64,000 nucleotides of DNA from Escherichia coli. GTDB lineage: Bacteria; Pseudomonadota; Gammaproteobacteria; Enterobacterales; Enterobacteriaceae. Shown in pieces: positions 3,350 to 45,375 of this stretch (the first letter of the stretch is position 1; every line of letters begins with the position of its first letter). The notes beneath the pieces are model-generated. The model did no database searches. It saw only the letters and a list, made by a program, of their open reading frames with translations, and was not told the origin of the DNA. The position numbers and the translations under genes are program-made. The stretch lies in the NCBI RefSeq assembly GCF_003334255.1, contig NZ_QOWU01000013.1; one strand, given 5' to 3'.

Positions 3350-3352
3350 TAA

Positions 3353-8052: not shown

Positions 8053-9603
8053 ATGCCCACTTCTCATGAAAATGCACTGCAACAACGTTGCCAGCAAATT
8101 GTCACCAGCCCAGTGCTTAGCCCGGAGCAGAAGCGCCATTTTCTGGCACTGGAAGCAGAAAACAATCTGCCTTACCCACAGCTTCCTGCCGAAGCCCGCC
8201 GCGCGCTGGATGAAGGTGTAATCTGCGATATGTTTGAAGGTCATGCGCCGTACAAACCGCGCTATGTCTTACCCGATTACGCCCGTTTTCTGGCGAACGG
8301 TTCCGAATGGCTGGAGCTGGAAGGCGCGAAAGATCTTGATGACGCACTCTCTCTGCTGACCATTCTTTACCACCACGTACCGTCGGTCACATCGATGCCG
8401 GTCTACCTGGGGCAACTGGATGCGTTGTTGCAACCGTATGTTAGAATTCTAACACAAGACGAGATCGATGTTCGAATAAAACGTTTCTGGCGTTACCTCG
8501 ACAGAACCCTGCCAGACGCCTTTATGCACGCCAATATCGGCCCGTCTGATTCGCCCATTACCCGCGCGATCTTACGTGCAGATGCAGAGTTGAAGCAGGT
8601 TTCACCGAACCTGACCTTTATCTACGATCCTGAAATCACCCCTGATGACCTGCTGCTGGAAGTGGCGAAGAACATCTGTGAATGTAGCAAACCGCACATC
8701 GCCAACGGTCCGGTGCATGATAAAATTTTCACAAAAGGGGGCTACGGGATTGTGAGCTGTTACAACTCACTGCCGCTGGCGGGTGGTGGCAGCACGCTGG
8801 TACGCCTTAACCTGAAAGCCATTGCCGAGCGCAGCGAATCGCTGGATGACTTCTTTACGCGCACTCTACCGCACTACTGCCAGCAGCAGATCGCCATCAT
8901 CGATGCGCGGTGTGAATTCCTCTATCAACAATCACACTTCTTTGAGAATAGCTTCCTGGTGAAAGAAGGGCTGATTAACCCTGAACGTTTTGTGCCAATG
9001 TTTGGCATGTATGGGCTGGCGGAAGCGGTTAACTTGCTGTGTGAAAAAGAAGGGATTGCCGCGCGCTACGGTAAAGAAGCCGCCGCAAATGAAGTAGGTT
9101 ATCGCATCAGCGCGCAACTGGCGGAGTTTGTCGCCAATACCCCCGTGAAATATGGCTGGCAAAAACGCGCCATGTTACACGCACAGTCGGGGATCAGTTC
9201 CGATATCGGCACCACGCCGGGCGCGCGTTTGCCGTATGGCGATGAGCCAGATCCGATCACCCATCTGCAAACTGTCGCCCCGCATCATGCTTATTATTAT
9301 TCCGGCATCAGCGACATTCTGACGCTCGACGAAACCATCAAACGTAACCCGCAGGCACTGGTACAGCTTTGCCTCGGTGCCTTTAAAGCCGGAATGCGTG
9401 AATTTACCGCCAATGTCAGCGGTAACGATCTGGTTCGCGTTACCGGTTATATGGTGCGTTTGTCGGATTTAGAAAAATATCGCGCCGAAGGTTCACGCAC
9501 CAACACCACCTGGCTGGGCGAAGAAGCCGCACGCAACACTCGTATTCTGGAACGCCAGCCGCGCGTGATAAGCCATGAACAGCAGATGCGCTTTAGTCAG
9601 TAA
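8053..9603 (+). CDS. yjjI: YjjI-family glycyl-radical enzyme of unknown substrate
   Basis: 516-aa ORF with a C-terminal glycyl-radical-type motif ([12 protein letters not shown]). It is followed by an overlapping activase gene. Confidence 0.9.
8439..8454 (-). promoter_or_regulatory. DeoR operator O1 / deoP1 -10, located inside the yjjI reading frame
   Basis: Perfect 16-bp palindrome TGTTAGAATTCTAACA. It encodes YVRILT of YjjI and lies 599 bp from O2. Confidence 0.85.
8718..8733 (-). promoter_or_regulatory. DeoR distal operator OE (candidate)
   Basis: TGATAAAATTTTCACA matches 12/16 positions of the operator palindrome. It lies exactly 279 bp beyond O1, the published O1-OE spacing as I recall it. 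Confidence 0.6.
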
Positions 9604-10438
9604 GATTATCCCCTTCTCCTGCGTTGACGGGCCAGGCAGTCGTCTGGCTCTGTTTTTGCAGGGCTGCAATCTGCGCTGCAAAAACTGTCACAATCCGTGG
9701 ACGATGGGACGTTGCAATGACTGTGGGGAGTGCGTGCCACAGTGTCCGCATCAGGCGTTGCAGATTGTTGACGGCAAAGTGGTGTGGAACGCTGTGGTTT
9801 GCGAGCAGTGTGATACCTGCCTGAAGAGGTGTCCGCAACATGCCACGCCCATGGCGCAATCCATGAGCGTGGACGAAGTGCTTAGCCATGTCCGCAAAGC
9901 AGTGCTGTTTATCGAAGGGATAACGGTGAGTGGCGGTGAAGCCACGACCCAGCTGCCGTTTGTGGTGGCGCTGTTTACTGCTATCAAAAACGATCCGCAA
10001 CTGCGCCATCTCACCTGTCTGGTGGACAGTAACGGCATGTTGAGCGAAACCGGCTGGGAAAAATTGCTCCCGGTGTGCGACGGCGCAATGCTCGATCTCA
10101 AAGCGTGGGGGAGCGAATGTCATCAACAACTCACCGGACGCGATAATCAGCAGATTAAGCGCAGCATCTATTTGCTGGCAGAGCGCGGCAAGCTGGCGGA
10201 ACTGCGTTTGCTGGTGATCCCTGGCCAGGTGGATTATTTGCAACACATCGAAGAACTGGCGGCGTTTATCAAGGGACTCGGCGATGTTCCGGTACGCCTG
10301 AACGCGTTTCATGCCCACGGCGTGTATGGCGAGGCGCAAAGCTGGGCGAGCGCCACGCCGGAAGACGTTGAGCCGTTGGCTGATGCGTTAAAGGTGCGCG
10401 GGGTGAGCCGGTTGATATTTCCGGCGCTCTATTTGTGA
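9575..10438 (+). CDS. yjjW: glycyl-radical enzyme activating protein (radical SAM) YjjW
   Basis: 287-aa ORF with [12 protein letters not shown] (CxxxCxxC) and two ferredoxin-like motifs, [12 protein letters not shown] and [12 protein letters not shown]. It overlaps the yjjI end by 29 nt. Confidence 0.9.
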
Positions 10439-10439
10439 C

Positions 10440-10865
10440 ATGCCGGATACGGCCTACGGTTCGGCACAGACTTGTAGGCCTGATAAGACGCGTCAAGCGT
10501 CGCATCAGGCATTGTGCGCCAACTGCCGGATGCGGCGCGAACGCCTTATCCGGCCTACGGTTCGGCACAAACCTGTAGGCATGATAAGACGCGACAAGCG
10601 TCGCATCAGGCATTATGCGCCGACTGCCGGATGCGGCGTGAACGCCTTATCCGGCCTACGGTTCGGCACAGACTTGTAGGCATGATAAGACGCGACAAGC
10701 GTCGCATCAGGCATTGTGCGCCAACTGCCGGATGCGGCGTGAACGCCTTATCCGGCCTACGGTTCGGCACAAACCTGTAGGCATGATAAGACGCGTTAAG
10801 CGTCGCATCAGGCATTGTGCGCCAACTGCCGGATGCGGCGTGAACGCCTTATCCGGCCTACGGCA
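10440..10865. repeat. BIME-2-type cluster: about 4.2 tandem copies of a 101-bp unit, each holding two inverted REPs
   Basis: gccggatgcggcg recurs at 10525, 10626, 10727 and 10828 (period 101), with a partial copy at 10441. Units alternate gccggatgcggcgtgaacgccttatccggcctac and gtaggcatgataagacgcg..aagcgtcgcatcaggc. Confidence 0.9.
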
Positions 10866-11637
10866 CGTTAAACAACGTATACGTGTTATTAAGCAACGCT
10901 TGCGCAATCTCATCCGCCGGTTCCCGGCGCAACTCGCAAAGCACGGCAAACACACGGGCAGCCTGCTCCGGGCGGTTAGGCTGCCCCTGAAAACCGTTGA
11001 GCGGCATATCCGGCGCGTCGGTTTCCAGCAATAACGATGCCAGCGGTAATTTTGCGATGACATCGCGGGTTTTACTGGCGCGTGGATAGGTGATAGTACC
11101 GCCTACGCCAATTTTGTAGCCCAGCTGTACAAACCGTTCGGCCTGTTGCAGGCTGCCGGAAAAACCGTGAACCACGCCAGTGCGCGGTAAATCGTGGCGT
11201 TTAAGATGCATCGCCAGTTTGTCGTGCGTGCGCCGTGAATGCAGGATCACCGGCAGATCGTAGCGTTTCGCCAGTTTCAGTTGTTCGTCGAGTAACCACT
11301 GCTGCCTCTCAAATTGCGGATCGTCGCCAAAGAGATCCAGACCGATCTCCCCCACCGCCACCACCTTCGCCGGACGCCTTTCCAGCGCCTGCTGTAGCTG
11401 CTCAAGAGACACATCGCTATGTTTTTCCAACATACCAGGATGCAAGCCCAATGCGGCATACAGCGGTTGATAATTTTCCGCTAATGCCAACACACGGGCA
11501 AAATTTTCCGCCTCTGTTGCCGGAACAATGATCTTGCCTACGCCCGCTTGTGCCGCGCGTTGCAGGCTGGCCTCTTCATCGCCACTAAACGGCGGGAAAT
11601 CAAAATGGCAGTGGGTGTCGATAAAACGGCAAATCAA
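10858..11637 (-). CDS. yjjV: TatD-family metal-dependent hydrolase YjjV
   Basis: 259-aa ORF MICRFIDTHCHFDFPPF... with TatD-type HxH and later His/Asp motifs. Confidence 0.9.
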   Translation of the reverse strand: MICRFIDTHCHFDFPPFSGDEEASLQRAAQAGVGKIIVPATEAENFARVLALAENYQPLYAALGLHPGMLEKHSDVSLEQLQQALERRPAKVVAVGEIGLDLFGDDPQFERQQWLLDEQLKLAKRYDLPVILHSRRTHDKLAMHLKRHDLPRTGVVHGFSGSLQQAERFVQLGYKIGVGGTITYPRASKTRDVIAKLPLASLLLETDAPDMPLNGFQGQPNRPEQAARVFAVLCELRREPADEIAQALLNNTYTLFNVP

Positions 11638-12707
11638 GCCAGATCCTCATTGTTAAATGTCGGGTCGTTCGCCTGCGGAGCGTCGCTCACTTCGGCAACC
11701 AGCGTATCGTTGGCGACTGGCGCAGGCGGAATGACAATCGATTCCGGCGTCACCACTGGCACCAGATGGCGGGTAAGCGGCGCTTTTTCAGTTAATAGCT
11801 TGCCAACCGTGGCGAGGAAATAACGACCGCATAAACGCCCAAGTTTATAGTCTTCACGCAGCGCCGGAATCCGACTGCCAAGCGCGATACTATGTAATGG
11901 CTTCGGCGGATAAATTTCGAATATCCGCAGCTTGCCCGGTGGTTTCTCAATAAATTGCTGAATGTCACGATAGCTGGTTTCATGATGCTGCACCAGATTG
12001 ACCAGCGGCTGCAGGCTACTGTCACCCAGCCAGCGTTCCATGCGTTTGAACCACTGCGGCGTGTAGTACATTTGTGACGGCACAGTGCGAATGACGACCA
12101 ACGTTTTAGCGCCCTGCCTTGCCGCCTCTTTAACCGGAATCGCATCACTGATCCCGCCATCCAGGTAGTTAATGCCTTCCAGCGACACTCCGCTACGATA
12201 AAAGCCAGGTATCGCACTGGAGGCGCGAATCACATCCAGCCAGTTTTGTTTGGTTGGTAAAAAGTAATTCGGCGCGTAGTCATCCTGACGACAGGCGCAC
12301 ATATAAAACGATTTGCCGCTGTCAAACAACCGCGCGGCGGTATCCATTTGCAACGGCATCTGGCTTGCAGTGGCCTCCACCAGCCAGTCGAGATCGATAA
12401 GATTTCCTCCACGGACAAAGCGCAATGGATCGAAAAATTCGCGTTTTGTGGTATAGCGCATGATGACTTTGCGCGCGTAACCGGGCTGATTGCAGATAAA
12501 CGCCGAGAGGTTCTGCGCCCCGGCAGATGTGCCGAGATAAAGATCGAAAGGATTAAACTGCGCGCGCATAAACTCATCCAGCACGCCAGCCGTGAAAATT
12601 CCACGCTGTCCGCCGCCTTCGCACACCAGAGCTATTCGTCCAGGCTGGAACGGCCTTAGCGACAACGGCGCAATATTACCAAGCGTTACAGGTATTCGCT
12701 GCCCCAC
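11634..12707 (-). CDS. yjjU: patatin-like phospholipase YjjU
   Basis: GGGQRG and GTSAGA patatin motifs. I prefer the GTG start at 12707, preceded by AGGAAGG (357 aa), over the TTG start at 12743 used by the ORF track. Confidence 0.85.
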   Translation of the reverse strand: MGQRIPVTLGNIAPLSLRPFQPGRIALVCEGGGQRGIFTAGVLDEFMRAQFNPFDLYLGTSAGAQNLSAFICNQPGYARKVIMRYTTKREFFDPLRFVRGGNLIDLDWLVEATASQMPLQMDTAARLFDSGKSFYMCACRQDDYAPNYFLPTKQNWLDVIRASSAIPGFYRSGVSLEGINYLDGGISDAIPVKEAARQGAKTLVVIRTVPSQMYYTPQWFKRMERWLGDSSLQPLVNLVQHHETSYRDIQQFIEKPPGKLRIFEIYPPKPLHSIALGSRIPALREDYKLGRLCGRYFLATVGKLLTEKAPLTRHLVPVVTPESIVIPPAPVANDTLVAEVSDAPQANDPTFNNEDLA

Positions 12708-12775
12708 CTCTGCCTTCCTGTTTTTGTTGTGAAAGAATGACAAAGTAACGCAATTTATTATTCGCTAAAACCGCA

Positions 12776-12800
12776 AAAGCCAGTCCGCTGGACTGGCTTT
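12776..12800 (-). terminator. hairpin terminator downstream of ytjA
   Basis: aaagccagtcc pairs with ggactggcttt across a 3-nt loop. On the minus strand it is followed by tgcggtttt. Confidence 0.55.
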
Positions 12801-12828
12801 GGATAAAATTTTCTTAATGGTCTGAAAT

Positions 12829-12990
12829 CTAGGGTCGTTTTCGGCCCATGAACAAACTCACCAGGAACAGAATAATCCCGACGACAAAGACAATTTTAGC
12901 TGCGCCTGCAGCGGTACCGGCCAGACCACCAAACCCAAGTGCGGCGGCGATTAACGCGATAACCAGAAATATGATGCCCCAACGAAACAT
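12829..12990 (-). CDS. ytjA: small membrane protein YtjA (DUF1328)
   Basis: 53 aa, [53 protein letters not shown]. An AAGGAG Shine-Dalgarno precedes this internal ATG. Confidence 0.8.
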
Positions 12991-13116
12991 AAGCGTCTCC
13001 TTTACCATAGTTAATGTCACCGCTTGATATGAGCGTGAAAATCACTCAATGCGATATTTTTAGTGTGGTGCACATCGCGCCTCCCGACAAAGTTCGGGAG
13101 GACGAATTACGACGAA

Positions 13117-13722
13117 TTACTTAGTTTTCAGATCATTTTTAACGCTTTTCACACCATCTACCGCTTTGGCGATACTTTCAGCACGGTCACTTTGTGCCTG
13201 AGAATCGACGGTACCGGAGAGCTGAACCACGCCGTCGGTGGTTTCAACTTTCACATGACGGGAAGGGACGATATCGTCCGCCAGCAGTTTGGCTTTGATT
13301 TCACTGGTGGTGGCGGTGTCACCCGCGTAGCCCTTCACCGAGCCTTCTTTAGCGTCGCGAACGTGCAGTTTGTCGCTGACAGAGGTCACCCCTTCAACGC
13401 CTTTCGCCACTTTCACTGCCTCTTCGGCCTGGGCCTGGCTTTCAACGAAACCGCTCAGGGTCACGACTTTTTGATCGGTTTTTACAGAGATATCGGTGCT
13501 CTTGATGTTGTCATGATCCACCAGGGCCGCCTTCACTTTCGCGGTGATGGCGCTGTCATCCATGAAATTACCGACTTTATTCATAGAGCTATCGACTTTT
13601 TGCCCTGCGCTTTCATTGGTAGTCTGCGCGTTGTTTTCCGCGTAGGCAGAGCCGGTCGCGACGGCAGAGGTCAACATTACAGCCAGCAGAGTTTTCGAAA
13701 TCTTCAGTCTTGTCATAGTCAT
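13117..13722 (-). CDS. osmY: periplasmic osmotically inducible protein OsmY (two BON domains)
   Basis: ORF frame trimmed to [28 protein letters not shown] (signal peptide), 201 aa. Confidence 0.95.
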
Positions 13723-14078
13723 CGATTTATTCCTGTATGTTTGCTCGTAATTTGAGCCTGGCAACACGAGGTTGCATTGCTGAATAGGGAGAGACTTCAC
13801 CCTCTACAGAAGTCAATGGTCGCCATCACAAAAGCGATGAGTGATGAATAACGACCATTACAGCCTCTGAATCAGTTATTAATATCGGTAGAATGACAAT
13901 CGACGGCTTTAGATACTGATATCTACGCATTGAACGGTATTTAACGCCGTCAGAAATGTCATCACTTTGTTAAATATAGATCACAATTTTGAAACCGCTC
14001 GGGATATCAGCGAAAACATAAGCAAAAGTGAATGTTTTAAGAACATTCCGTAAGCGGCTAATAAGGAAGGGAAATTGA

Positions 14079-14104
14079 CAGGGCGCAGCGGCTACCGCGC
14101 CCTG
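14079..14104 (-). terminator. hairpin just downstream of prfC
   Basis: cagggcgc pairs with gcgccctg across a 10-nt loop, 11 nt after the prfC stop. The T tract is weak. Confidence 0.45.
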
Positions 14105-14114
14105 GAGGCAAGAA

Positions 14115-15704
14115 TTAATGCTCGCGGGTCTGGTGGAACTGAACGTCCGGATAACGTTCCTGTGCCAGGCGCAGGTTGACCATGCTGGTAGCGATGTAAG
14201 CGAGGTTATCGCCGCCATCAAGCGCCAGTTGGCTTTCGTTCTTACGCTTGAACTCTTCGAATTTCTTCGCGTCTGCACATTCTACCCAGCGGGCAGTGGC
14301 AACGTTGACTGACTCATACACTGCTTCAACGTTGTATTCGCTCTTCAGGCGCGCTACCACCACATCAAACTGCAGCACACCAACTGCACCAACGATCAGA
14401 TCGTTGTTGGAGATTGGACGGAACACCTGCACCGCGCCCTCTTCGGAAAGCTGTACCAGCCCTTTGAGCAGCTGTTTTTGCTTCAGCGGATCTTTCAGGC
14501 GGATACGACGGAACAGTTCTGGTGCGAAGTTCGGAATACCGGTGAACTTCATCATCTCACCCTGGGTAAAGGTGTCGCCGATCTGAATGGTGCCGTGGTT
14601 GTGCAGGCCGAGGATATCGCCCGGATACGCTTCTTCAACGTGCGAACGGTCACCCGCCATAAAGGTCAGCGCGTCGGAGATCACCACATCTTTCGCAGTG
14701 CGCACCTGGCGCAGTTTCATGCCTTTTTCATATTTACCGGACACCACACGCATAAACGCCACGCGGTCGCGGTGTTTCGGGTCCATGTTGGCCTGAATTT
14801 TAAATACGAAGCCGGTAAATTTATCTTCGCTCGCTTCTACGGTACGGGTATCAGTCTGACGCGGCATCGGCGCAGGTGCCCACTCCACCAGGCCATCCAA
14901 CATATGATCGACGCCGAAGTTACCCAGCGCAGTACCGAAGAATACCGGAGTGATTTCGCCCGCAAGGAACAGCTCTTTGTCGAACTCGTTAGACGCGCCT
15001 TTCACCAGTTCCAGTTCGTCACGCAGCTGCTGTGCCAGATCTTCACCAACCGCAGCATCGAGATCCGGGTTATTCAGCCCTTTAACAATGCGGACTTCCT
15101 GAATGGTGTGGCCTTTACCGCTCTGATAGAGATAGGTTTCGTCTTTATAAAGGTGGTAAACGCCTTTAAACAGCTTGCCGCAGCCAATCGGCCAGGTGAT
15201 CGGCGCACAGCCGATTTTCAGCTCGTTCTCAACTTCATCGAGCAGCTCCATCGGGTCGCGGATATCACGGTCAAGTTTGTTCATAAAGGTGAGGATCGGC
15301 GTGTCGCGCAGACGGGTAACTTCCATCAGCTTACGGGTACGATCTTCAACACCTTTTGCGGCGTCGATAACCATCAGGCAGCAGTCCACCGCCGTCAGGG
15401 TACGATAGGTATCTTCCGAGAAGTCTTCGTGCCCCGGGGTGTCGAGCAGGTTAACCAGGCAATCGTGATACGGAAACTGCATCACAGACGTAGTAATGGA
15501 GATCCCACGCTGCTTTTCCATCTCCATCCAGTCCGACTTAGCGTGCTGGTTGGAACCACGGCCTTTTACTGTACCGGCGGTCTGAATGGCCTGTCCGAAC
15601 AGCAGCACCTTCTCGGTGATGGTAGTCTTACCGGCGTCCGGGTGAGAAATAATGGCAAAAGTGCGGCGCTTCGCCACCTCTTGCAAATAAGGAGACAACG
15701 TCAT
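14115..15704 (-). CDS. prfC: peptide chain release factor 3
   Basis: ORF frame trimmed to [28 protein letters not shown] (529 aa) with a GTPase P-loop. Confidence 0.97.
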
Positions 15705-15794
15705 AATTCTTTCTTCTTGAGTAAGCGGCATCGCGCCGCGCTTGTTGAAAACGAAAAATTGCGGCTATTTTACCCATCAACGGGGGGGAGGCAA

Positions 15795-16472
15795 TCAGTG
15801 TTTACACAGGAGCTGCTCCAGTTCGTGCAACGAAGAAACGGTCCAGGTGGGCGCGATGCCTTCTGGTTGCTCGCGATGGTGTGCATTCAGCCAGCAGGTC
15901 GCAAGCCCGGCGTTGATGCCACCGAGAATATCGGACTCGGCAGTGTCGCCAACCATCAGCACGCGTGAACGGTCAGGATTGCCCGCCTGTTCCAGCGCAT
16001 AATCGAAAATTTTCTTATTCGGTTTGGCAACGCCAACTTCTTCGGAAATCACCAGCAAATCGAAGTAATCACGCAGGCCCGTGCGTTCCAGACGTACCTG
16101 TTGCAAGGCACTAAAGCCGTTGGTGATGATGCCGATTTTGGCGTTGCCACGAATGGCGTTAAGCAGAGAAACCGCGCCCGGCAGCGGCGTGCAGATTTCC
16201 GCCATCGCATTAATAAAGGCTTCGTTGAGTTTACCTGGCTCGACGTTCAGCCGTTCGGCCCAGCTCTCAAACCGCCCGTGCTGAAGCTGTAATGAAGTGA
16301 TCGCGCCGTTTTGATAATCCACCCACAGTGGCTTGTTAACGGCCTGATAGTCCTGAAAATCTTCAGCGGTAAAGGTGACGCTGTAATCAAGAAACATCCG
16401 CTGCAGGCCGGTGAATGAGTCAAAGGTAAACAGCGTTTCATCGGCATCAAAGAAAATCCAGTCCCACTTCAT
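15795..16472 (-). CDS. yjjG: HAD-family pyrimidine 5'-nucleotidase YjjG
   Basis: 225-aa ORF with the [12 protein letters not shown] motif I. Confidence 0.95.
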
Positions 16473-16486
16473 TATTCCACCTTGTA

Positions 16487-16933
16487 TTACATACTGATTG
16501 GCAACGCCATGATGATGGCGTCTTCGCGACCGTCCGTGGTGGGGTAGTAATTGCGGCGAATCGTCGCCTCGTTAAAGCCTAAACTTTCGTACAGGGCAAT
16601 GGCGGCAGCGTTTGAAGCACGGACTTCCAGCCATAGTGTCGCCACGCCGCGTTTTTCCAGTTCGTCGATCAGATGTTCCAGCAGCGCCCTTCCCAATCCC
16701 TGACGCTGATAGTCAGGATCGACCGCAATATTGAACAATGTAGCTTCATCCAGCACCACTTGCGTAATCGCAAACGCCGCCATTTTGCCGTTTTGCGTTA
16801 ACTGAAAGTTGAGATAACGCTCGCCCTGGTTGCTGGCAAACGTTTTTTCACTCCACGGAAAGGCGTGGGCGCGTTGTTCAATGTGGTAAGCCGCCGGTAA
16901 ATCAGTCGTTTCGAGGGAAGAAATCGTGTTCAT
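16487..16933 (-). CDS. rimI: ribosomal protein S18 alanine N-acetyltransferase RimI
   Basis: 148-aa GNAT ORF containing [13 protein letters not shown]. Confidence 0.95.
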
Positions 16934-17315
16934 ATGTGCAAATTTGTTGCCATAACGCGGCGCGTGCCGTTGGGTTTGCCCGTAAATCGGTGAGCGCCGG
17001 TGATGCCACCTGAGCGCCTTCCAGTGATAGCGGTTCGTCAGTACCCAACCGCCAACTGTTGCAGTGACTGCCTTGCGGCAGCATCGCGATTTTTTCTGGC
17101 GTCAGTTGCAGCACCTGGTCGGGGCTGACGGTTAATGCGCGCAGAACATCGCTCACTAAAGGATCAGTCAGGGCGGGAAGATCGTTTGCCACCATCACCA
17201 GACGGACGTGTGCCGGGATCGCAATGGCAATCTCCCCCTGCAACGCGCCAGGGCGACGCAGCGACCACTGGGTAATGCCCAGTTGCTGTAACTGCCAGTC
17301 TCGTCGGGATGTCAT
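16902..17315 (-). CDS. holD: DNA polymerase III psi subunit HolD
   Basis: 137-aa ORF MTSRRDWQLQQLGITQWSLRRP.... Its 3' end overlaps the rimI start by 32 nt. Confidence 0.95.
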   Translation of the reverse strand: MTSRRDWQLQQLGITQWSLRRPGALQGEIAIAIPAHVRLVMVANDLPALTDPLVSDVLRALTVSPDQVLQLTPEKIAMLPQGSHCNSWRLGTDEPLSLEGAQVASPALTDLRANPTARAALWQQICTYEHDFFPRND

Positions 17316-17417
17316 AGCGAATCGCTCCTGTTGTCAGGGGCGCAAATATAGCAAATTCGTCGATACCGCGCCAACATATGGCTATAATCGCCGCCAGTAT
17401 CAATTGAGGAGCATTCC

Positions 17418-18449
17418 ATGTCTGCATTTACCCCGGCAAGTGAAGTCTTGCTGCGTCACAGTGATGATTTCGAACAAAGCCGTATTCTGTTTGCCGGAGA
17501 CTTACAGGATGACCTGCCCGCGCGTTTAGATACCGCGGCCAGCCGTGCTCATACCCAGCAATTCCACCACTGGCAGGTATTAAGCCGCCAGATGGGGGAT
17601 AACGCCCGTTTCAGTCTGGTCGCCACGGCGGATGACGTCGCAGATTGCGATACGCTGATTTACTACTGGCCGAAGAACAAACCGGAAGCCCAGTTCCAGT
17701 TGATGAATTTACTTTCTCTGCTGCCAGTGGGGACAGATATTTTTGTCGTTGGCGAGAACCGCAGCGGCGTGCGCAGCGCCGAGCAGATGCTGGCAGATTA
17801 TGCGCCGTTGAATAAAGTCGACAGCGCTCGTCGCTGTGGCCTCTATTTTGGTCGTCTGGAAAAACAGCCGGTATTTGATGCGGAGAAATTCTGGGGCGAA
17901 TACAGCGTCGATGGCCTGACGGTCAAAACGCTGCCTGGCGTGTTTAGCCGCGACGGTCTGGATGTCGGTAGCCAGTTGCTGCTCTCGACGTTAACTCCGC
18001 ACACGAAAGGTAAAGTGCTGGATGTCGGCTGTGGCGCGGGCGTGCTTTCAGTTGCCTTTGCGCGCCATTCGCCGAAAATTCGTCTCACCTTGTGCGATGT
18101 CTCTGCCCCGGCGGTAGAAGCCAGCCGCGCAACACTTGCGGCCAACGGTGTTGAAGGTGAAGTCTTTGCCAGCAACGTCTTTTCCGAGGTGAAAGGTCGT
18201 TTTGATATGATCATCTCCAACCCGCCGTTCCACGATGGGATGCAAACCAGCCTGGATGCGGCGCAAACGCTGATTCGCGGTGCGGTGCGTCATCTTAATA
18301 GCGGCGGCGAGCTGCGAATTGTAGCGAACGCCTTCCTGCCTTATCCGGACGTGCTGGATGAGACATTTGGCTTCCACGAAGTGATCGCGCAAACAGGGCG
18401 CTTCAAGGTGTATCGCGCCATTATGACCCGCCAGGCGAAGAAAGGTTAA
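17418..18449 (+). CDS. rsmC: 16S rRNA m2G1207 methyltransferase RsmC
   Basis: 343-aa ORF with [12 protein letters not shown] and NPPFH motifs. Confidence 0.95.
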
Positions 18450-18467
18450 TTATCTCGCCGAATACCG

Positions 18468-18560
<93 letters not shown>

Positions 18561-18647
18561 ATCTGCCCCCGCATGCATACCAAACCTGCACGCTAGTTTC
18601 CTGATGGACATTTTTCCAGCAATTACACCTCTGTCGATAATTAACTA

Positions 18648-18675
18648 TTGACGAAAAGCTGAAAACCACTAGAAT
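18648..18675 (+). promoter_or_regulatory. sigma-70 promoter of the leu-tRNA gene
   Basis: TTGACG (18648-18653), a 16-nt spacer, then TAGAAT (18670-18675). A GC-rich discriminator (gcgcc) follows, and the site lies about 40 nt upstream of the tRNA. Confidence 0.7.
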
Positions 18676-18716
18676 GCGCCTCCGTGGTAGCAATTCTTTT
18701 TAAGAATTGATGGTAT

Positions 18717-18803
18717 GCGAAGGTGGCGGAATTGGTAGACGCGCTAGCTTCAGGTGTTAGTGTCCTTACGGACGTGGGGGTTCAAGTCCCCCCCCTCGCA
18801 CCA
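18717..18803 (+). tRNA. leuV: tRNA-Leu (anticodon CAG)
   Basis: 87 nt, GCGAAGGTGGCGGAATTGGTAGACGCGCTAGCTTCAGGTGTTAGTGTCCTTACGGACGTGGGGGTTCAAGTCCCCCCCCTCGCACCA. The anticodon CAG is at 18751-18753, with a long variable arm and an encoded CCA. Confidence 0.97.
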
Positions 18804-18841
18804 ATTATCTTTACTTCCTTTCTTGTTTCTTCCTTGATTTT

Positions 18842-37013: not shown

Positions 37014-37316
37014 TTATTTTTTGTTCTGATCGCGCAGCATCGCTTCACGTAAAATTGCGTTCAGGCGAGTTTGATAGCCTTTACCAGGTCGCTTCAGCCA
37101 TTCCATCACATCAGCATCAATACGCACCGAAGCCTGGGTTTTCAATGGCCGATAAAACTTACCGCGTTCTGCGTTAGACCATTGCTCATCGCTGGAAGGT
37201 GGGATATCGCTGTAATCAATCTCTTCGTCGGATTTATTCGCCAGCGCCTTCAATTCGGCCTCATGCTGCACATCGAGTGTAGAGGAGGTCCCTCGTTTAT
37301 GTTTAACCATGCTCAT
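37014..37316 (-). CDS. brnA: BrnA-family antitoxin
   Basis: 100 aa from the internal ATG. MSMVKHKRG...EIDYSDIPPSSDEQWSNAERGKFYRPLKTQASVRIDADVMEWLKRPGKGYQTRLNAILREAM matches the BrnA/DUF4415 signature. The start overlaps the brnT stop by 14 nt. Confidence 0.85.
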   Translation of the reverse strand: MSMVKHKRGTSSTLDVQHEAELKALANKSDEEIDYSDIPPSSDEQWSNAERGKFYRPLKTQASVRIDADVMEWLKRPGKGYQTRLNAILREAMLRDQNKK

Positions 37317-37599
37317 AGCGACTCCTCTCTTTACGATCTGCTTTTCGTGCACTGATGATTCGAATAATTTCATTTCCGCTTTCGAAACGGATGGTATGCG
37401 CAACCAGAATAACCACGATACCGTGAACCACGCCGATAGTCTGCCAGCGATACTCACCGTTTTCTATGCGATCTTGCTGTGACAAATGTTGTGGATCATC
37501 AAACACCAACACCGCATCTTCAAAGCGGATGCCATGTTTCACCCGATTACTTTTGGCCTTGTTTGCATCCCATTCAAACTCCATTGGCATAGTTGCCAT
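37303..37599 (-). CDS. brnT: BrnT-family (DUF497) ribonuclease toxin
   Basis: MEFEWDANKAKSNRVKHGIRFEDAVLVFDDP...IIRIISARKADRKERSRY matches the DUF497 signature. The start is one of the ATGs at 37599, 37590 or 37584. The TTG at 37617 in the ORF track is unlikely. Confidence 0.85.
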   Translation of the reverse strand: MATMPMEFEWDANKAKSNRVKHGIRFEDAVLVFDDPQHLSQQDRIENGEYRWQTIGVVHGIVVILVAHTIRFESGNEIIRIISARKADRKERSRYEHG

Positions 37600-37786: not shown

Positions 37787-38953
37787 GTGAAAAACTATAA
37801 AGTTATTACCCCGCTTTTTCCTACCTATGCACAGGTTAAAGCTATGATGAAAGCCGTCTCAGGCTATTCCCTGAAAGCGGTACGCAATATGATTACCGCC
37901 ATTCACGAGCAAACCGGTACGCCGCAAAAACCCGTTGACTGGTCGGAACCCGACCTGTGGATCAGCGAGCGCTTAACGGGTGAAGATGCCGACATCGCCC
38001 GTCGTATTTGGGATACCGATAATCACATCTTGAACCCGCGCCACAGCTACGGCTGCTACTTATTCCTCAACTATCCCCAGTTTGATCTGATGGAAAGCAC
38101 ACCAGATGATACCTGGCAGCCCACCTCGCACGGGCAAAAATTCCTGCAAGATGACGAAAAAACGCTGCGTTCACTGGACGATCAGGAAGGCATTCTGCAA
38201 CTTCTTGAACTATTAGCTGGCCGCGAAATGTCGCGCCGCGCCGATTTATTGCCGGAATGGCAGGCCTTTTTGCATCAGCATTCGAAATTCGCGTCTGCAA
38301 GTTCAGTGAAAAGCACGCTCTACTCCCGTCTCTATAACCTTATCGACCGTGACATGGTTAACCGTGAAGGCATGAGCTATCGCATCACCGATACCGGGCG
38401 CGCCTGACTTGGAAAAGCGTTACCTGCACGAAAAAGCGATCCGCGTAAAGAGCTGTTGGAAGCGGTAAAACGCTATAACGAACAGCAAAAAGAGCTGCTG
38501 CGCGAACAAATCAGCACGATGAACCCGTACAAATTTGAACAACTGGTCGGTCAATTACTGGAAGCAATGGGCTACGAGCAGGTCGAAGTGACCAAAGCCT
38601 CTGGCGATAAAGGCGTGGACGTGATTGGTCAGGTGCAGGTCGGCATCACCACCATTACAGAAGTGGTGCAGGTCAAAAGAATGCAGAACACTATCACTCG
38701 CCCGTATATCGACCAGTTGCGCGGGGCGTTGCCTTACCACAAAGCCATTCGCGGTACGCTCATCACCACCGGGAAATTTGCGGCGAAATGTGCAGAAGCG
38801 GCGCTCTTTCCGGGTGCCGCGCCCATTACGCTTATCGACGGCGATCGTTTACTGGAACTGTTAATCGAAAATAACGTCGGCATTCGCCGCAGCAATGCAG
38901 TGGAATTGCTGGATGTAGATTTGCAGTTGTTTGATGAGCTGGAGATGGATTAA
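37787..38953 (+). pseudogene. Mrr-type (type IV-like) restriction endonuclease gene interrupted by one in-frame TGA (38405-38407)
   Basis: ORFs 37787..38407 and 38456..38953 are in the same frame, and only the TGA separates them. The upstream part ends in an Mrr_N-like winged helix (ILQLLELLAGREMSRRADLL...GMSYRITDTGRA). The downstream part is an Mrr_cat PD-(D/E)xK domain (SGDKGVDVIG...VVQVKR). Confidence 0.7.
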
Positions 38954-39016
38954 AGGGCGAAATCCGCCGCCTCAACCATTACAATAGCGACCCAATTTAT
39001 CTGAACAGAGTTCATC

Positions 39017-40625
<1,609 letters not shown>

Positions 40626-40636
<11 letters not shown>

Positions 40637-42017
40637 TGGCTTCAAGTTACCTCTAGGATGGAATTGTAAAAAACTGGTTGATTGTACAAAGGAGGGAAAT
40701 ATCTCTTATGGTATTGTTCAACCAGGTCAGCATCAAGAAGATGGCATTGGTATTATTCGTGTAAATAATATACAAAATGGAAATATTTACATAGACGATG
40801 TTCTGAAGGTTTCTCATGAAATAGAAAGTAAATTTGCCAAAACTAGGTTAGAAGGAGGAGAAGTACTTTTAACACTAGTGGGTTCCACTGGAATTAGCGC
40901 CATTACAACTAAAGCACTACAGGGATGGAATGTTGCTCGTGCCGTAGCCGTAATTAAGCCATGCGATGAAATAAGTGCAGAGTGGATACATATTTGCCTC
41001 CAATCACCTTTTACAAAATATTTTTTGGATTCCAGAGCTAATACTACTGTTCAGAAAACTCTCAATCTCAAAGACGTGAAAGAAATTCCATTACCAATTC
41101 CTCCACATGAGGAAAGAGTAAGTCTTGAGAAAATTTACTTCAATTTTGAGAATAGAATAAACTTAAATATAAAAATTAATAAAATCCTAGAAGAAATGTC
41201 ACAAAACCTGTTCAAATCCTGGTTTGTAGATTTTGATCCGGTGGTTGATAACGCTCTGGATGCAGGAAACCCAATTCCGGAAGCCCTGCAATCTCGCGCC
41301 GAATTGCGTCAAAAAGTACGTAATAGTGCAGATTTTAAACCGCTTCCGGCGGAAATCCGCTCGCTTTTCCCAAGTGAATTTGAAGAAACGGAGTTGGGTT
41401 GGATGCCAAAGGGATGGCAAATTAAATCATTAGATCATATTGCTAATTTCCAGAATGGTTTGGCTTTACAAAAATTTAGGCCGAAGAATATGGAGGATGA
41501 TTATTTACCTGTATTAAAAATAGCAGATCTCCGAGCAGGACAAATAACTAATGACGAACGAGCAAGAACTGATATTTCTGATAGTTGTAAGGTGTATGAC
41601 GGCGATATGATTTTCTCATGGTCGGGGACTTTGATGATCGATATTTGGACTGGTGGGAATGCTGCATTAAATCAGCATTTATATAAGGTCACATCAAAAA
41701 AATACCCACAATCTTTTTATTTTATGTGGACAATACAGCATCTTTCAAGATTTCAACATATTGCAGAGGCAAAAGCGGTAACAATGGGGCACATCAAAAA
41801 AGGAGATTTAAGTAACTCTTTCTGTCTAATTCCTACTTCATCGTTGATTACTAAATATGATAATATCGTTGGAGGATATTTAGCGAAGATTAAAAATCAA
41901 AGATTGTTAAATAACCAAATGACCGCCCTACGCGACACCCTGCTCCCGAAACTCATCTCCGGCGAGCTATCCCTGGACGATATTCCGGATCTCAACACCG
42001 ATACAGAAGCTGCATAA
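40626..42017 (+). CDS. hsdS: type I R-M specificity subunit HsdS
   Basis: 463-aa ORF overlapping hsdM by 11 nt. It has a conserved central helix (LFKSWFVDFDPV) and C-terminal helix (LRDTLLPKLISGEL) flanking two AT-rich variable domains. Confidence 0.9.
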
Positions 42018-42025
42018 CGCATTTT

Positions 42026-42050
42026 GCCCCTGTAAAATCAGGGGCTTTCT
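42026..42050 (+). terminator. terminator-like hairpin between hsdS and hsdR
   Basis: gcccctg, taaaat loop, caggggc, followed by tttct. A second inverted repeat pairs ctggtaag (42049-42056) with cttaccag (42079-42086). Confidence 0.5.
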
Positions 42051-42111
42051 GGTAAGGTTTTCTACTGATACGGGAATGCTTACCAGAAATTAGCCAGGGT
42101 TGGAGCGCGAT

Positions 42112-45100
42112 ATGAGTCTCTCTTTCAGTGAAGCAAAATTAGAACAAGCGATCATTGAACTGTTACAGGATCAGGGATATCAACACCTGATCGGCGATAA
42201 TGTCCCACGTTCGACTCTCGATCAGGTCATTATCGAAGACGATCTCCGTCATTATTTAGCGGCACGCTACCAGCCTGATGGCATTACTGAAGAAGAGATT
42301 CAGCGACTGATCAAACAGTTCACCACGCTTCCGGCCTCCGATCTTTATGAAAGCAACAAAACATTTTGTCGCTGGCTGGCAAATGGTTTTCTGTTCAAAC
42401 GCGACGATCGGCAAAAAAAAGATCTCTATATTGAATTGCTCGACACCCGGCATCTACCTGCCGCACTGCGCCAGATATTTGACGCTGAAGATGTCCCGTT
42501 GCAACAGGCGGCGGAACTCCCGCCCTCCTATATTAATCCGCCGCTTAACCGGATTAAGATTGTTAACCAGCTTAAAATCTCCGGTAAAGATAATCAGACT
42601 CGTATTCCTGACGGCATTCTCTATATCAACGGTCTGCCACTGGTCGTCTTTGAATTTAAAAGCGCGGTGCGCGAGCAGGAAGCCAATATAGGCGATGCCT
42701 GGAAGCAGCTCTGCAAACGCTATCGCCGGGATATTCCGCAACTGTTTATCTACAACGCGCTCTGCATTATTAGCGATGGTGTAAATAACCGGATGGGCAA
42801 CCTGTTTGCGCCCTATGAATACTTTTACTCATGGCGCAAAGTCACCGGTAATGAAAACCGTGAACAGGACGGAATTCCATCATTGCACTCAATGATTCAG
42901 GGACTGTTTCATCCGGTACGTCTGTTGGATGTGATTAAAAACTTTATCTGCTTCCCGGATAAAGCCAAGCACGAAGTAAAAATTTGCTGCCGATATCCGC
43001 AGTACTATGCCGCCCGCAAACTCTATTACAGCATCAAGCAAGCGCGTAAACCTTTCGGTAGCGGTAAAGGCGGTACCTACTTTGGCGCAACGGGCTGCGG
43101 AAAAAGCTACACCATGCAATTTTTAACCCGCCTGTTAATGAAAAGCGTGGAGTTTGCCAGCCCGACCATTGTTTTGATCACCGACCGTACCGATCTGGAC
43201 GATCAGCTTTCTGCGCAAATGTGCAACGCCAAAAATTACATTGGCGATGACACCATCGTTCCCGTTACCAGCCGTGAAGATTTGCGTAATCAACTGGCGG
43301 GACGCAATAGTGGCGGTGTATTCCTGACAACGATCCATAAATTCACCGAAGACACCGAACTCCTTTCTGAACGCAGCAATATCATTTGCATCTCGGACGA
43401 AGCACATCGCAGTCAGGTTAACCTCGACCAGAAAGTCATCGTCGATAAAGAAAGCGGAAAAGTGCGCAAAACTTATGGCTTTGCGAAATACCTGCACGAT
43501 TCACTGCCAAACGCCACCTATGTTGGCTTTACCGGAACTCCGATTGACGCAACACTCGATGTCTTCGGTGAGGTGATCGACAGTTACACCATGACCGAAT
43601 CCGTTCAGGATGAAATCACTGTACGCATCGTGTACGAAGGCCGTGCGGCTAAAGTGATCCTGGACTCCAGCAAACTGGAAGAAGTCGAAAAGTATTACGA
43701 AGAGTGCGCAAACGCAGGCACCAATGAGTGGCAAATCGACGAAAGCAAAAAAGCCACCGCAACCATGAATGCGGTACTGGGTGATGAAGATCGGTTAAAA
43801 GCCCTCGCGGAAGATTTTGCCAAACATTATGAAAAACGCGTAGCCGAAGGTTCCACCGTAAAAGGCAAAGCCATGTTTGTTTGTGCCAGCCGTGAAATTG
43901 CCTGGGATTTCTACCGCCAGCTTAAAGTTATTCGCCCTGCCTGGTTTGAAGTGAAGCAAGCCCCCGATGGCGTCGTCCTGACGGAACAGGAGCAGAAAGA
44001 GTTACCGCCTTCTGAAATGGTGAAGATGGTCATGACGCGCGGTAAAGATGACGACGAGGCGCTTTATGATTTACTGGGCACAAAAGAATATCGCAAAGAG
44101 CTGGATAAGCAGTTCAAAAACGCTAAATCGAATTTCAAAATTGCCATTGTTGTTGATATGTGGCTGACCGGTTTTGATGTTCCTGAACTGGATACCATCT
44201 ATATTGATAAGCCCTTACAAAAACATAACCTTATCCAGACTATTTCTCGCGTTAACCGTAAACTGGAAGGCAAAAGCAAAGGGTTAGTAGTGGACTACAT
44301 CGGCATTAAGAGTCAGATGAACCAGGCACTGGCAATGTATTCCCGCATTGATGCCACCAACTTTGAAGATATTCAGCAATCGGTAATAGAAGTTAAAAAC
44401 CATCTCGATTTGTTGGGGCAAGTATTTTATGAATTCGACAGTCGGGATTATTTTAGTGGTGAGCCACAAGCGCAATTATCCTGCCTCAACCGCGCGGCGG
44501 AATTTGTTCTGCGCACTCAGAAAGTTGAACGTCGTTTTATGGGACTGGTTAAACGCATGAAAGCCGCCTACGACGTCTGCTGCGGCAGTGAAGCACTATC
44601 ACAGACAGAACGTGATCATATTCACTATTATCTTGCTGTTCGTTCAATTGTTTTCAAACTGACGAAAGGTGACGCACCGGATGTCACCCAGATGAATGCA
44701 CGCGTTCGTGAAATGATTGCAGAAGCGCTAAAAGCTGATGGCGTAGAAGAAATTTATTTTCTTGGCGATAAAAAAGCGGAATCCATCGATATTTTTGACG
44801 AAGATTATCTGGCGCGAATTAACAAGATCAAACTTCCGGCAACGAAGATCCAGTTATTACAAAAATTACTGGAAAAAGCGATCAGCGACTTCAAGAAAGT
44901 GAACCAGTTGCAAGGGATTAACTTCACCCGCCGCTTCCAGGCGATTATAGATCGTTATAATGAGCGGCGAGAAGATGATGTACTCAACGGTGAAGAATTC
45001 GATACATTCAGTCAGGAAATGACCGATATTATCTATGATATTAAAACCGAAATGGGCACATGGGCCGATTTAGGTATTGATATTGAAGAAAAAGCGTTTT

Positions 45101-45375
45101 TCGACATTCTTGCTCATATGCGCGATAAATATCAGTTCACCTATGACGATGAAAAAATGCTGTCACTGGCAAAAGAGATGAAAAGCGTGGTTGACAACAC
45201 ATCGAAATATCCTGACTGGAGTAAACGCGATGATATTAAAGCGAAACTGAAAGTTGAACTTATTCTGCTTCTACACAAGCATAAGTTCCCGCCAGTAGCA
45301 AATGATGATGTTTATATGGGTGTGCTGGCACAGGCAGAGAATTTTAAAGAACATCATATGAGTGCTTTAAATTAA
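42112..45375 (+). CDS. hsdR: type I restriction enzyme R subunit HsdR
   Basis: 1087 aa from the ATG at 42112, preceded by GGAG. It has a PD-(D/E)xK nuclease motif (DGILYINGLPLVVFEFK), a helicase Walker A (GATGCGKS) and a DEAH box (SDEAHRSQ). Confidence 0.95.
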   Translation: MSLSFSEAKLEQAIIELLQDQGYQHLIGDNVPRSTLDQVIIEDDLRHYLAARYQPDGITEEEIQRLIKQFTTLPASDLYESNKTFCRWLANGFLFKRDDRQKKDLYIELLDTRHLPAALRQIFDAEDVPLQQAAELPPSYINPPLNRIKIVNQLKISGKDNQTRIPDGILYINGLPLVVFEFKSAVREQEANIGDAWKQLCKRYRRDIPQLFIYNALCIISDGVNNRMGNLFAPYEYFYSWRKVTGNENREQDGIPSLHSMIQGLFHPVRLLDVIKNFICFPDKAKHEVKICCRYPQYYAARKLYYSIKQARKPFGSGKGGTYFGATGCGKSYTMQFLTRLLMKSVEFASPTIVLITDRTDLDDQLSAQMCNAKNYIGDDTIVPVTSREDLRNQLAGRNSGGVFLTTIHKFTEDTELLSERSNIICISDEAHRSQVNLDQKVIVDKESGKVRKTYGFAKYLHDSLPNATYVGFTGTPIDATLDVFGEVIDSYTMTESVQDEITVRIVYEGRAAKVILDSSKLEEVEKYYEECANAGTNEWQIDESKKATATMNAVLGDEDRLKALAEDFAKHYEKRVAEGSTVKGKAMFVCASREIAWDFYRQLKVIRPAWFEVKQAPDGVVLTEQEQKELPPSEMVKMVMTRGKDDDEALYDLLGTKEYRKELDKQFKNAKSNFKIAIVVDMWLTGFDVPELDTIYIDKPLQKHNLIQTISRVNRKLEGKSKGLVVDYIGIKSQMNQALAMYSRIDATNFEDIQQSVIEVKNHLDLLGQVFYEFDSRDYFSGEPQAQLSCLNRAAEFVLRTQKVERRFMGLVKRMKAAYDVCCGSEALSQTERDHIHYYLAVRSIVFKLTKGDAPDVTQMNARVREMIAEALKADGVEEIYFLGDKKAESIDIFDEDYLARINKIKLPATKIQLLQKLLEKAISDFKKVNQLQGINFTRRFQAIIDRYNERREDDVLNGEEFDTFSQEMTDIIYDIKTEMGTWADLGIDIEEKAFFDILAHMRDKYQFTYDDEKMLSLAKEMKSVVDNTSKYPDWSKRDDIKAKLKVELILLLHKHKFPPVANDDVYMGVLAQAENFKEHHMSALN

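What the first reader, a model, noticed from the sequence alone, without database searches (positions are those of the whole stretch)
37787..38953. Mrr-type nuclease split by a single in-frame TGA in the weak TGA-C context
Seen: ORFs 37787..38407 and 38456..38953 share one reading frame, and the only interruption is TGA at 38405-38407. The codons after it read straight on (LGKALPARKSDPRKELLEAVKRYNEQQ...). The stop falls exactly between an Mrr_N-like winged helix and the Mrr_cat PD-(D/E)xK domain (GDKGVD ... QVK). About 130 aa of unrecognised sequence precede the winged helix. The downstream part has no convincing start of its own: TTG at 38456 has a weak Shine-Dalgarno, and the first ATG is at 38519. 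Known: the base after a stop codon modulates termination in E. coli, and UGA-C is reported as the weakest tetranucleotide. Inference: this is one of three things. It may be a recently inactivated type IV restriction gene. It may be a leaky stop that keeps a toxic nuclease at very low full-length dosage. Or it may be a sequencing error.
Basis: partly seen in the sequence, partly recalled or inferred. Interest (0 to 1): 0.6.

Follow-up and report, generated by a model that had tools for sequence, protein, structure and literature searches.

The report
Nonsense-mutated Mrr-like nuclease pseudogene
An E. coli restriction-type nuclease gene beside a type I restriction system has been cut short by one recent TGG-to-TGA mutation; this is an ordinary pseudogene that public annotation already flags.

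Summary
ORFs 37787..38407 and 38456..38953 share one frame, and the only interruption is TGA at 38405-38407, followed by C. The window is the E. coli immigration control region (yjiA, brnTA, this gene, hsdM-S-R).

The gene occurs in 881 of 5,426 complete E. coli genomes. Exactly 34 carry this TGA, and in the eight of them whose records I opened RefSeq marks the gene 'pseudo, internal stop'. That rules out a sequencing error. All 11 other E. coli alleles inspected (95.8-99.2% identical) read TGG (Trp) there and encode one 388-aa protein. In 79 species-level orthologues the aligned residue is Tyr, Trp or His, never a stop.

The TGA haplotype is very young: 2-15 mismatches over 13-37 kb among carriers. 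The C after the stop is inherited from TGG-C, and no RNA structure follows it. Changes since the stop lean non-synonymous (E100D, A38S, L340F), and one strain has deleted the 3' half.

The best reading is a recent W207* inactivation. Low-level readthrough by Trp-tRNA would rebuild the wild-type protein, but nothing indicates selection for it.

The protein has a winged-helix N-terminal region and an Mrr_cat nuclease domain. It matches PADLOC candidate PDC-S02 and shows no Pfam Mrr_N match. Whether it needs modified DNA was not tested. Interest is low.

The parts
37787..38953 (+). Whole disrupted gene: 388-codon 'restriction endonuclease' (winged-helix N-terminal region plus Mrr_cat; PADLOC PDC-S02 family) with one premature stop
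   Evidence: frame and translation. PGAP annotates the same interval in ATCC 11775 and S88 as 'restriction endonuclease', pseudo, 'internal stop'; the intact allele matches PDC-S02 over its full length, E=2.2e-206.
37787..38404 (+). Codons 1-206, the part still translated: helical N-terminal region with winged-helix-like units
38405..38407 (+). Premature stop TGA (W207*), followed by C at 38408
   Evidence: TGG in all 11 intact E. coli alleles inspected, each also followed by C. TGA in exactly 34 of 5,426 genomes; the aligned residue is W, Y or H in all homologues.
38408..38953 (+). Untranslated remnant: linker, long helix and Mrr_cat PD-(D/E)xK nuclease domain (Pfam match corresponds to nt 38513-38863), ending at the natural TAA
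38422..38422 (+). Synonymous A private to the window (G in every other allele examined), downstream of the stop
39017..40636 (+). hsdM of the linked type I R-M system, 63 nt downstream on the same strand
   Evidence: WP_001029740.1.
40626..42017 (+). hsdS. The full-length form of this specificity allele is found only in genomes that carry the TGA
42112..45375 (+). hsdR of the linked type I system
37014..37590 (-). brnA/brnT toxin-antitoxin pair, divergent from the nuclease gene (context only)

Best explanation
This is a recent, lineage-specific nonsense allele (TGG to TGA, W207*) of a single-polypeptide nuclease gene. The gene sits at the head of the hsdMSR cassette in the E. coli immigration control region. 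The intact protein (388 aa) joins an N-terminal winged-helix DNA-binding region to a C-terminal Mrr_cat PD-(D/E)xK nuclease. Inferred: it is a solitary restriction or defence nuclease. In the window, translation ends after residue 206, so the nuclease domain is not made, or is made only in trace amounts. The allele is a null or severe hypomorph riding on a young haplotype that has moved between strain backgrounds by recombination. Shown: the ancestral codon, the distribution of the stop, the domain content and the youth of the haplotype. Inferred: loss of function, and that the loss is neutral or mildly advantageous rather than programmed.
For: Frame and single stop.

Ancestral state: all 11 intact alleles inspected have TGG-C and one 388-aa CDS. 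The nearest intact protein differs from the window only by E100D, R115H and W207*. R115H already exists in an intact allele.

Distribution: the gene is in 881 of 5,426 genomes. The TGA is in exactly 34, and E100D is in the same 34. PGAP marks the gene pseudo, 'internal stop', in the eight carriers I opened.

Orthologues: 909 homologues, with full-length ones from many genera. In 79 species-level loci residue 207 is Y in 49, W in 27 and H in 1, and no locus has a stop there.

Haplotype age: carriers differ from the window by 2-15 mismatches over 13-37 kb. Strain 99RCEF has a different left flank, which indicates recombination.

Relaxed constraint: among 10 intact alleles, 87 codons vary and 12 change an amino acid. 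Downstream of codon 207 the figures are 40 and 1. On the TGA lineage the changes other than the stop are E100D, A38S and L340F against one synonymous change. Fisher's test of 3:1 against 12:75 gives p=0.013.

Further decay: strain B-1109 has deleted everything from about codon 228 into hsdR.

Recurrent loss: other E. coli alleles carry independent frameshifts and in-frame deletions.

No recoding signal: the RNA downstream of the stop folds less stably than its shuffles (z=+1.6).
Against: UGA followed by C is a documented weak terminator in E. coli (PMC5289835, citing Poole et al. 1995). UGA readthrough in K-12 reporters is about 2% at 37 C and about 4% at 25 C, set by Trp-tRNATrp competing with RF2 (PMC10570021). 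Readthrough would insert Trp, the ancestral residue, so some fully wild-type protein is probably made and the allele may not be a strict null.

Apart from the stop, the downstream half is still perfect in the window.

The haplotype is too young for decay to have been expected, so the relaxed-constraint signal rests on only four substitutions.

No expression or activity data exist.
Confidence: 0.85

Rival explanations
1. Selected leaky stop. The UGA-C is kept because near-cognate decoding by Trp-tRNATrp gives a low, safe dose of the exact wild-type nuclease.
For: UGA with +4 C terminates poorly. Reporter readthrough of UGA is about 2-4% in K-12, through Trp-tRNATrp. The ancestral residue is Trp, so the readthrough product would be wild type. 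The downstream ORF is intact in the window.
Against: The +4 C was not acquired: all intact alleles read TGG-C. The stop is absent from the other 847 E. coli carriers and from 79 other species. No downstream structure is present. L340F arose at a mostly-Leu position (27 of 38 homologues) of the nuclease domain in three TGA strains, and the 3' half is deleted in another. The cited work names +4 A, not +4 C, as the context that favours tRNATrp misreading in E. coli. The reporter figures come from K-12 only.
Confidence: 0.06
2. Adaptive inactivation to resolve an epigenetic conflict. The haplotype's own HsdS specificity creates methylated sites that the nuclease attacks, so W207* was selected. This is a variant of the best explanation that differs only in the cause.
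For: The full-length hsdS allele of the window occurs only in TGA genomes (31 intact and 2 damaged copies). The nearest haplotypes with an intact nuclease share only 64% of hsdS, which indicates that one target-recognition domain was exchanged. Conflicts between methylation systems and methyl-dependent nucleases are documented (PMC8989522; PMC3152355, title and abstract).
Against: Complete linkage is expected anyway for a haplotype this young. The nuclease is intact beside many different hsdS alleles in E. coli, and it sits inside type I loci in many phyla, so it generally tolerates type I m6A methylation. Methyl-dependence of this nuclease has not been shown.
Confidence: 0.1
3. Two functional genes: a 206-aa DNA-binding protein plus a separately initiated nuclease starting at TTG 38456 or ATG 38519.
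For: Both ORFs are open. Gene callers elsewhere have called C-terminal fragments of other damaged alleles as proteins (P0075, P0048).
Against: There is no usable Shine-Dalgarno sequence before either start. The promoter scan finds nothing inside the gene and is no richer than shuffled sequence. Orthologues are fused everywhere. The split is confined to one young haplotype.
Confidence: 0.02
4. Sequencing or assembly error, or selenocysteine recoding at the TGA.
For: A single-base difference from TGG. TGA is also the Sec codon.
Against: The same base is found in 34 independently sequenced complete genomes. The ancestral residue is Trp or Tyr, never Cys or Sec. No SECIS-like hairpin is present.
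Confidence: 0.01

Closest known systems
PADLOC candidate defence family PDC-S02
   Same: The intact allele matches model PDLC04796 end to end (residues 1-386 against profile positions 1-383 of 390, E=2.2e-206).
   Different: The window copy is truncated at codon 207. PDC-S02 is only a computational candidate: the papers that mention it are surveys, and no activity has been demonstrated.
E. coli K-12 Mrr (type IV, methyl-dependent; Mrr_N plus Mrr_cat) in the same immigration control region
   Same: C-terminal Mrr_cat domain with the D...QxK catalytic residues. A winged-helix N-terminal DNA-binding part. Location next to hsd genes between yjiA and yjiS.
   Different: Mrr_N is not detected by Pfam (1 of 38 members at E=0.005). 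An extra N-terminal region of about 130-150 aa has no Pfam family. The protein is 388 aa long and lies on the same strand as hsdM, upstream of it. Modification dependence is untested.
MspJI / AspBHI modification-dependent endonucleases and AF1548
   Different: Sequence identity is 14-21%. Their DNA-recognition domains are SRA-like, not winged helix. No PDB sequence reaches E<=0.01 against the family profile.
Ordinary nonsense pseudogenes flagged by NCBI PGAP as 'internal stop'
   Same: One transition from a sense codon, intact orthologues, a shallow clade, and the pseudogene flag in RefSeq on this same allele (window and ATCC 11775/S88 differ by one synonymous base, 38422).
   Different: Nothing material. 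The only distinctive point is that near-cognate readthrough would restore the original residue.

Membership tests
Mrr_cat (PF04471) PD-(D/E)xK nuclease domain | HMM match above Pfam's gathering score | tested here: met
   104.7 bits (cut-off 21) for window residues 208-388; all 38 family members match.
Mrr_cat (PF04471) PD-(D/E)xK nuclease domain | Catalytic acidic residues and (Q/E)xK lysine conserved | tested here: met
   E251, D274, D278, E292, Q295 and K297 are invariant in 38 homologues. The window encodes GDKGVD...EVVQVK.
Mrr_cat (PF04471) PD-(D/E)xK nuclease domain | Restriction-endonuclease-like alpha/beta fold | tested here: met
EcoKMrr-type type IV restriction enzyme | Mrr_N (PF14338) N-terminal domain | tested here: not met
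   no hit for this protein; 1 of 38 members at E=0.0054. Generic wHTH families match instead (HVO_A0261_N in 21 of 38, HTH_45 in 14 of 38).
EcoKMrr-type type IV restriction enzyme | Cleaves only modified (methylated) DNA and has no cognate methyltransferase | not testable with these tools
   No biochemical data. The gene is often adjacent to type I hsdM genes, so its solitary status is ambiguous.
PADLOC PDC-S02 candidate defence gene | Full-length match to the PDC-S02 profile | tested here: met
   E=2.2e-206, residues 1-386 (intact allele P0001).
PADLOC PDC-S02 candidate defence gene | Protects against phage or plasmid | not testable with these tools
   Only survey mentions were found.
Programmed stop-codon readthrough / recoding gene | The stop is conserved at the same position across orthologues | tested here: not met
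   a sense codon (W, Y or H) in every locus with a residue aligned there (77 of 79; the other 2 have an alignment gap) and in all 11 intact E. coli alleles. The stop is in only 34 near-identical genomes.
Programmed stop-codon readthrough / recoding gene | Stimulatory downstream RNA structure, SECIS, or a specially acquired context | tested here: not met
   MFE -17.8 against a shuffle mean of -22.5 (z=+1.6). The +4 C is ancestral.
Programmed stop-codon readthrough / recoding gene | Purifying selection on the sequence downstream of the stop within stop-bearing lineages | tested here: inconclusive
   Only two downstream substitutions (one synonymous, one L340F) and one deletion. This leans towards relaxed constraint, but the numbers are tiny.
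Nonsense pseudogene | Sense codon one mutation away in close relatives; intact orthologues; shallow distribution | tested here: met
   PGAP 'internal stop'.

The most novel reading that the evidence does not exclude
The TGA is an attenuating allele rather than a null. Trp-tRNATrp readthrough of the weak UGA-C regenerates the exact wild-type nuclease at roughly 0.1-2% dosage. This attenuation was selected because the haplotype's unique HsdS specificity (one target-recognition domain swapped relative to the nearest intact haplotype) methylates sites that the nuclease attacks. It would be a natural case of a defence-system conflict resolved by translational leakiness.
Probability: 0.04. Interest if true: 0.55.

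Novelty: already known. Interest (0 to 1): 0.12.

Why it matters
It matters little in itself. It is one more example of restriction genes in the E. coli immigration control region being lost by point mutation, and RefSeq already marks this allele as a pseudogene.

Three minor points have some value. First, strains such as the E. coli type strain ATCC 11775 and S88 lack this nuclease, which may affect what DNA they accept. Second, the intact gene belongs to an uncharacterised candidate defence family (PDC-S02) that lies inside or beside type I R-M operons in at least half of the species loci examined, which is worth experimental study. Third, TGG-to-TGA alleles are a special class in which natural readthrough restores the original protein, so 'pseudogene' may mean a hypomorph here.

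Tried and rejected
Sequencing error: rejected. The same TGA is in 34 independent complete genomes.

Selenocysteine or structured readthrough signal: rejected. Folding 38395-38475 gives z=+1.6 against shuffles, and the ancestral residue is Trp or Tyr.

Two-gene architecture in orthologues: rejected.

Internal promoter or terminator: the scan found no more than shuffled sequence gives.

NCBIfam: no family above cut-off.

PDB sequence search with the family profile: no hit at E<=0.01.

R115H as a degenerative change on the TGA lineage: dropped, because an intact allele (strain EC15) already has H115.

First hsdM adjacency count (10 of 79): it used only the window's HsdM as query and underestimated linkage. 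I redid it with diverse HsdM, HsdR and HsdS queries and found at least 39 of 79.

Literature on the E. coli A0 34/86 and E2348/69 hsd loci: neither mentions this nuclease.

Phylogroup assignment of the carrier strains: not possible with these tools. I report only mosaicism of the flanks.

Full report
**1. Observation.** Reading the window confirms the finding as described. A GTG at 37787 opens a frame that runs 206 codons to TGA at 38405-38407. The next base is C. The same frame then continues without interruption (LGKALPARKSDPRKELLEAVKRYNEQQ...) to TAA at 38951-38953. The listed ORFs 37787..38407 and 38456..38953 are in one frame. After the stop, the first in-frame start codons are TTG 38456 and ATG 38519. 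Neither has a credible Shine-Dalgarno sequence: the best is AAGAG only 3 nt upstream of the TTG.

**2. Where we are.** The window is Escherichia coli, in the variable 'immigration control region' between yjiA and yjiS. The local order is btsT, yjiX, yjiA, brnA/brnT (minus strand), this gene, hsdM (39017), hsdS (40626), hsdR (42112), symE. The literature describes this region as a replaceable cassette of restriction genes flanked by yjiA and yjiS (PMC2481252).

**3. Is the stop real, and how widespread is it?**
- Against 5,426 complete E. coli genomes, the gene is present in 881.
- A 63-nt probe centred on the stop is matched perfectly by exactly 34 genomes. These include the type strain ATCC 11775, S88, MS7163, E110019 and F8704-2.
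- A second probe covering codons 100-115 is matched perfectly by the same 34 genomes.
- In every one of these genomes that I opened, NCBI's annotation calls the gene 'restriction endonuclease', pseudo, 'internal stop'.
- A sequencing error is therefore excluded.

**4. What occupies the position elsewhere?**
- Eleven other E. coli alleles, 95.8-99.2% identical at the DNA level, all read TGG-C there and are annotated as one intact 388-aa CDS.
- The closest intact protein (WP_000800829.1) differs from the window's conceptual product only by E100D, R115H and W207*.
- H115 also occurs in an intact allele. D100 is confined to the 34 TGA genomes.
- Beyond E. coli, a protein search returned 909 homologues. 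Full-length single polypeptides of about 385-400 aa come from Citrobacter, Klebsiella, Serratia, Halomonas, Thiocystis and others.
- In a 38-sequence alignment, residue 207 is W in 24, Y in 13 and H in 1.
- In 79 species-level genomic loci it is Y in 49, W in 27, H in 1 and gapped in 2. It is never a stop.
The ancestral state is unambiguous: a single G-to-A transition, TGG to TGA.

**5. Age and spread of the allele.**
- Carriers are almost identical to the window over long tracts: ATCC 11775 has 2 mismatches in 13.3 kb, E110019 has 8 in 37.3 kb, F8704-2 has 10 and 99RCEF has 15 in 23.4 kb.
- 99RCEF has a different left flank (an hpa operon, and 98.3% identity in tsr). ATCC 11775 diverges from the window by 0.5% to the left of about 18.7 kb.
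- So a young haplotype has been shuffled among backgrounds by recombination, which is typical for this region.

**6. Selection.**
- Among ten intact alleles, 87 codons vary and only 12 change the protein. Downstream of codon 207, 40 codons vary and just 1 changes the protein. The nuclease half is therefore under strong purifying selection when intact.
- Three non-synonymous changes to one synonymous, against 12:75, gives Fisher p=0.013. This is suggestive of relaxed constraint but rests on very few events.
- Strain B-1109 has deleted everything from about codon 228 into hsdR.
- Other E. coli alleles of the gene carry independent frameshifts (P0068, representing 133 member sequences; P0078, 46; P0081). 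Others carry in-frame deletions, one of which removes GITTITEVVQV from the catalytic core.
- Recurrent loss is evidently the common fate of this gene.

**7. The leaky-stop idea.**
- Poor termination with a C at +4, especially after UGA, is well documented in bacteria (PMC5289835, citing Poole et al. 1995).
- UGA readthrough in K-12 reporters is about 2% at 37 C and about 4% at 25 C. It is governed by competition between Trp-tRNATrp and RF2 (PMC10570021).
- An appealing corollary follows: readthrough would insert Trp, the ancestral residue, so any full-length product would be wild type.

Nothing, however, indicates that this is selected.
- The C at +4 is simply what follows TGG in every intact allele.
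- The RNA after the stop is less structured than its shuffles (z=+1.6).
- The stop is absent outside one shallow haplotype.
- The downstream half has already taken a non-conservative hit and a deletion in some carriers.
- The cited work names +4 A, not +4 C, as the context that favours tRNATrp misreading in E. coli.
- The reporter figures come from K-12 only. From my own knowledge, K-12 carries an unusually weak RF2 variant (Thr246), so natural isolates should read through less. I did not verify this here.

I rate a selected leaky stop at about 6%.

**8. What the protein is.**
- Pfam finds Mrr_cat at residues 243-359 (E about 1e-29) in all 38 members, with the catalytic residues invariant.
- The region at residues 150-208 is a winged helix. 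Within the family it matches HVO_A0261_N in 21 of 38 members and HTH_45 in 14 of 38, but the hits are sub-threshold for this protein. Pfam Mrr_N matches only 1 of 38 members, at E=0.005.
- Residues 1-150 have no Pfam family.
- An AlphaFold2 model of the intact ST131 allele (mean pLDDT 80) gives a confident helical N-terminal region (residues about 10-210) with two wing-like hairpins. A disordered linker follows at 214-217, then a long helix at 219-244, then the nuclease domain. W207 sits in the last helix of the N-terminal region.
- Fold searches match the catalytic domain to AspBHI, AF1548 and MspJI, and the N-terminal part to MarR/PadR-type winged helices and FokI/BpuJI-like recognition modules.
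- PADLOC's candidate family PDC-S02 matches the protein end to end (E=2e-206). The papers that mention PDC-S02 are surveys only.
- Hence 'Mrr-type' is right for the catalytic domain. Membership of the EcoKMrr family fails on the Mrr_N feature. 'Type IV' (modification-dependent) is an untested inference.

**9. Context across bacteria (a side finding).** In Serratia, Kushneria and Thiocystis the gene lies immediately beside or inside a type I R-M operon, in three different arrangements. A tblastn screen with several HsdM, HsdR and HsdS queries finds a type I subunit within 4 kb in at least 39 of 79 species loci. The order hsdR, nuclease, hsdM, hsdS recurs in Pseudomonas, Polaromonas, Thiocystis and others. 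This count is a lower bound.

**10. A speculative cause.** The full-length hsdS allele of the window occurs only in TGA genomes. The nearest haplotypes with an intact nuclease share only 64% of hsdS, which is consistent with one swapped target-recognition domain. Conflicts between methylation systems and methyl-dependent nucleases are known (PMC8989522; PMC3152355). Inactivation could therefore have been favoured by a new type I specificity. But complete linkage is expected for so young a haplotype, and the nuclease coexists with many other hsdS alleles. I give this about 10%.

**11. Verdict.** The best explanation is an ordinary, recent W207* pseudogene of a candidate defence nuclease, already flagged as such in RefSeq (confidence 0.85). 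Novelty: already known. Interest: low.

Noticed in passing
L041, L049, L054, L058, L061, L065-L067, L069, L075, L101-L105 (gene at about 4001-5150 or 5001-6200 of each locus); window 37787-45375: The wHTH plus Mrr_cat nuclease family (PADLOC PDC-S02) lies beside or inside type I R-M operons in at least 39 of 79 species-level loci from many phyla. The order is often hsdR, nuclease, hsdM, hsdS. This suggests a functional link with type I systems that I did not find described.
   Followed up: partly
window 40626-42017 (hsdS): The full-length form of this hsdS allele is found only in genomes carrying the TGA nuclease allele: 31 intact copies, one with an IS1 insertion (C10) and one partial copy (EC21Z-063); B-1109, whose deletion runs from the nuclease into hsdR, shows no match in the rows listed. 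The nearest haplotypes with an intact nuclease share only 64% of hsdS, so one target-recognition domain appears to have been exchanged.
   Followed up: partly
window 18717-18803: There is a single tRNA-Leu(CAG) where both K-12 MG1655 and ATCC 11775 have three tandem copies (three annotated tRNA-Leu genes in each). This is either a real recombinational collapse or an assembly collapse.
   Followed up: partly
window 1-22764 versus 18716-64000: The window is a mosaic. Positions 1-22764 are essentially K-12 MG1655 (3 mismatches). Positions 18716-64000 are essentially ATCC 11775 (9 mismatches in all over the three compared tracts, which overlap slightly). ATCC 11775 differs from the window by 0.5% (91 mismatches) in 1-18804.
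   Followed up: partly
L018 4001-6597 (strain B-1109); proteins P0068, P0078, P0081, P0003, P0006: The same nuclease gene has suffered independent damage elsewhere in E. coli: a deletion fusing codon ~228 to hsdR, at least three different frameshift alleles (one representing 133 member sequences), and in-frame deletions, one between short direct repeats in the catalytic core.
   Followed up: partly
window 37014-37590 (minus strand): A BrnT/BrnA toxin-antitoxin pair lies divergently just upstream of the nuclease gene. brnT is truncated in several strains with other alleles (for example strain 64.1, FDAARGOS_1284 and VCSW7).
   Followed up: no
L013 10467-13527 (E110019), L014 13905-16054 (F8704-2): Neighbouring core genes are annotated as pseudogenes in single carriers of the haplotype: lgoT frameshifted and tsr with an internal stop in E110019, and btsT frameshifted in F8704-2. 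These may be real decay or errors in those particular assemblies.
   Followed up: no
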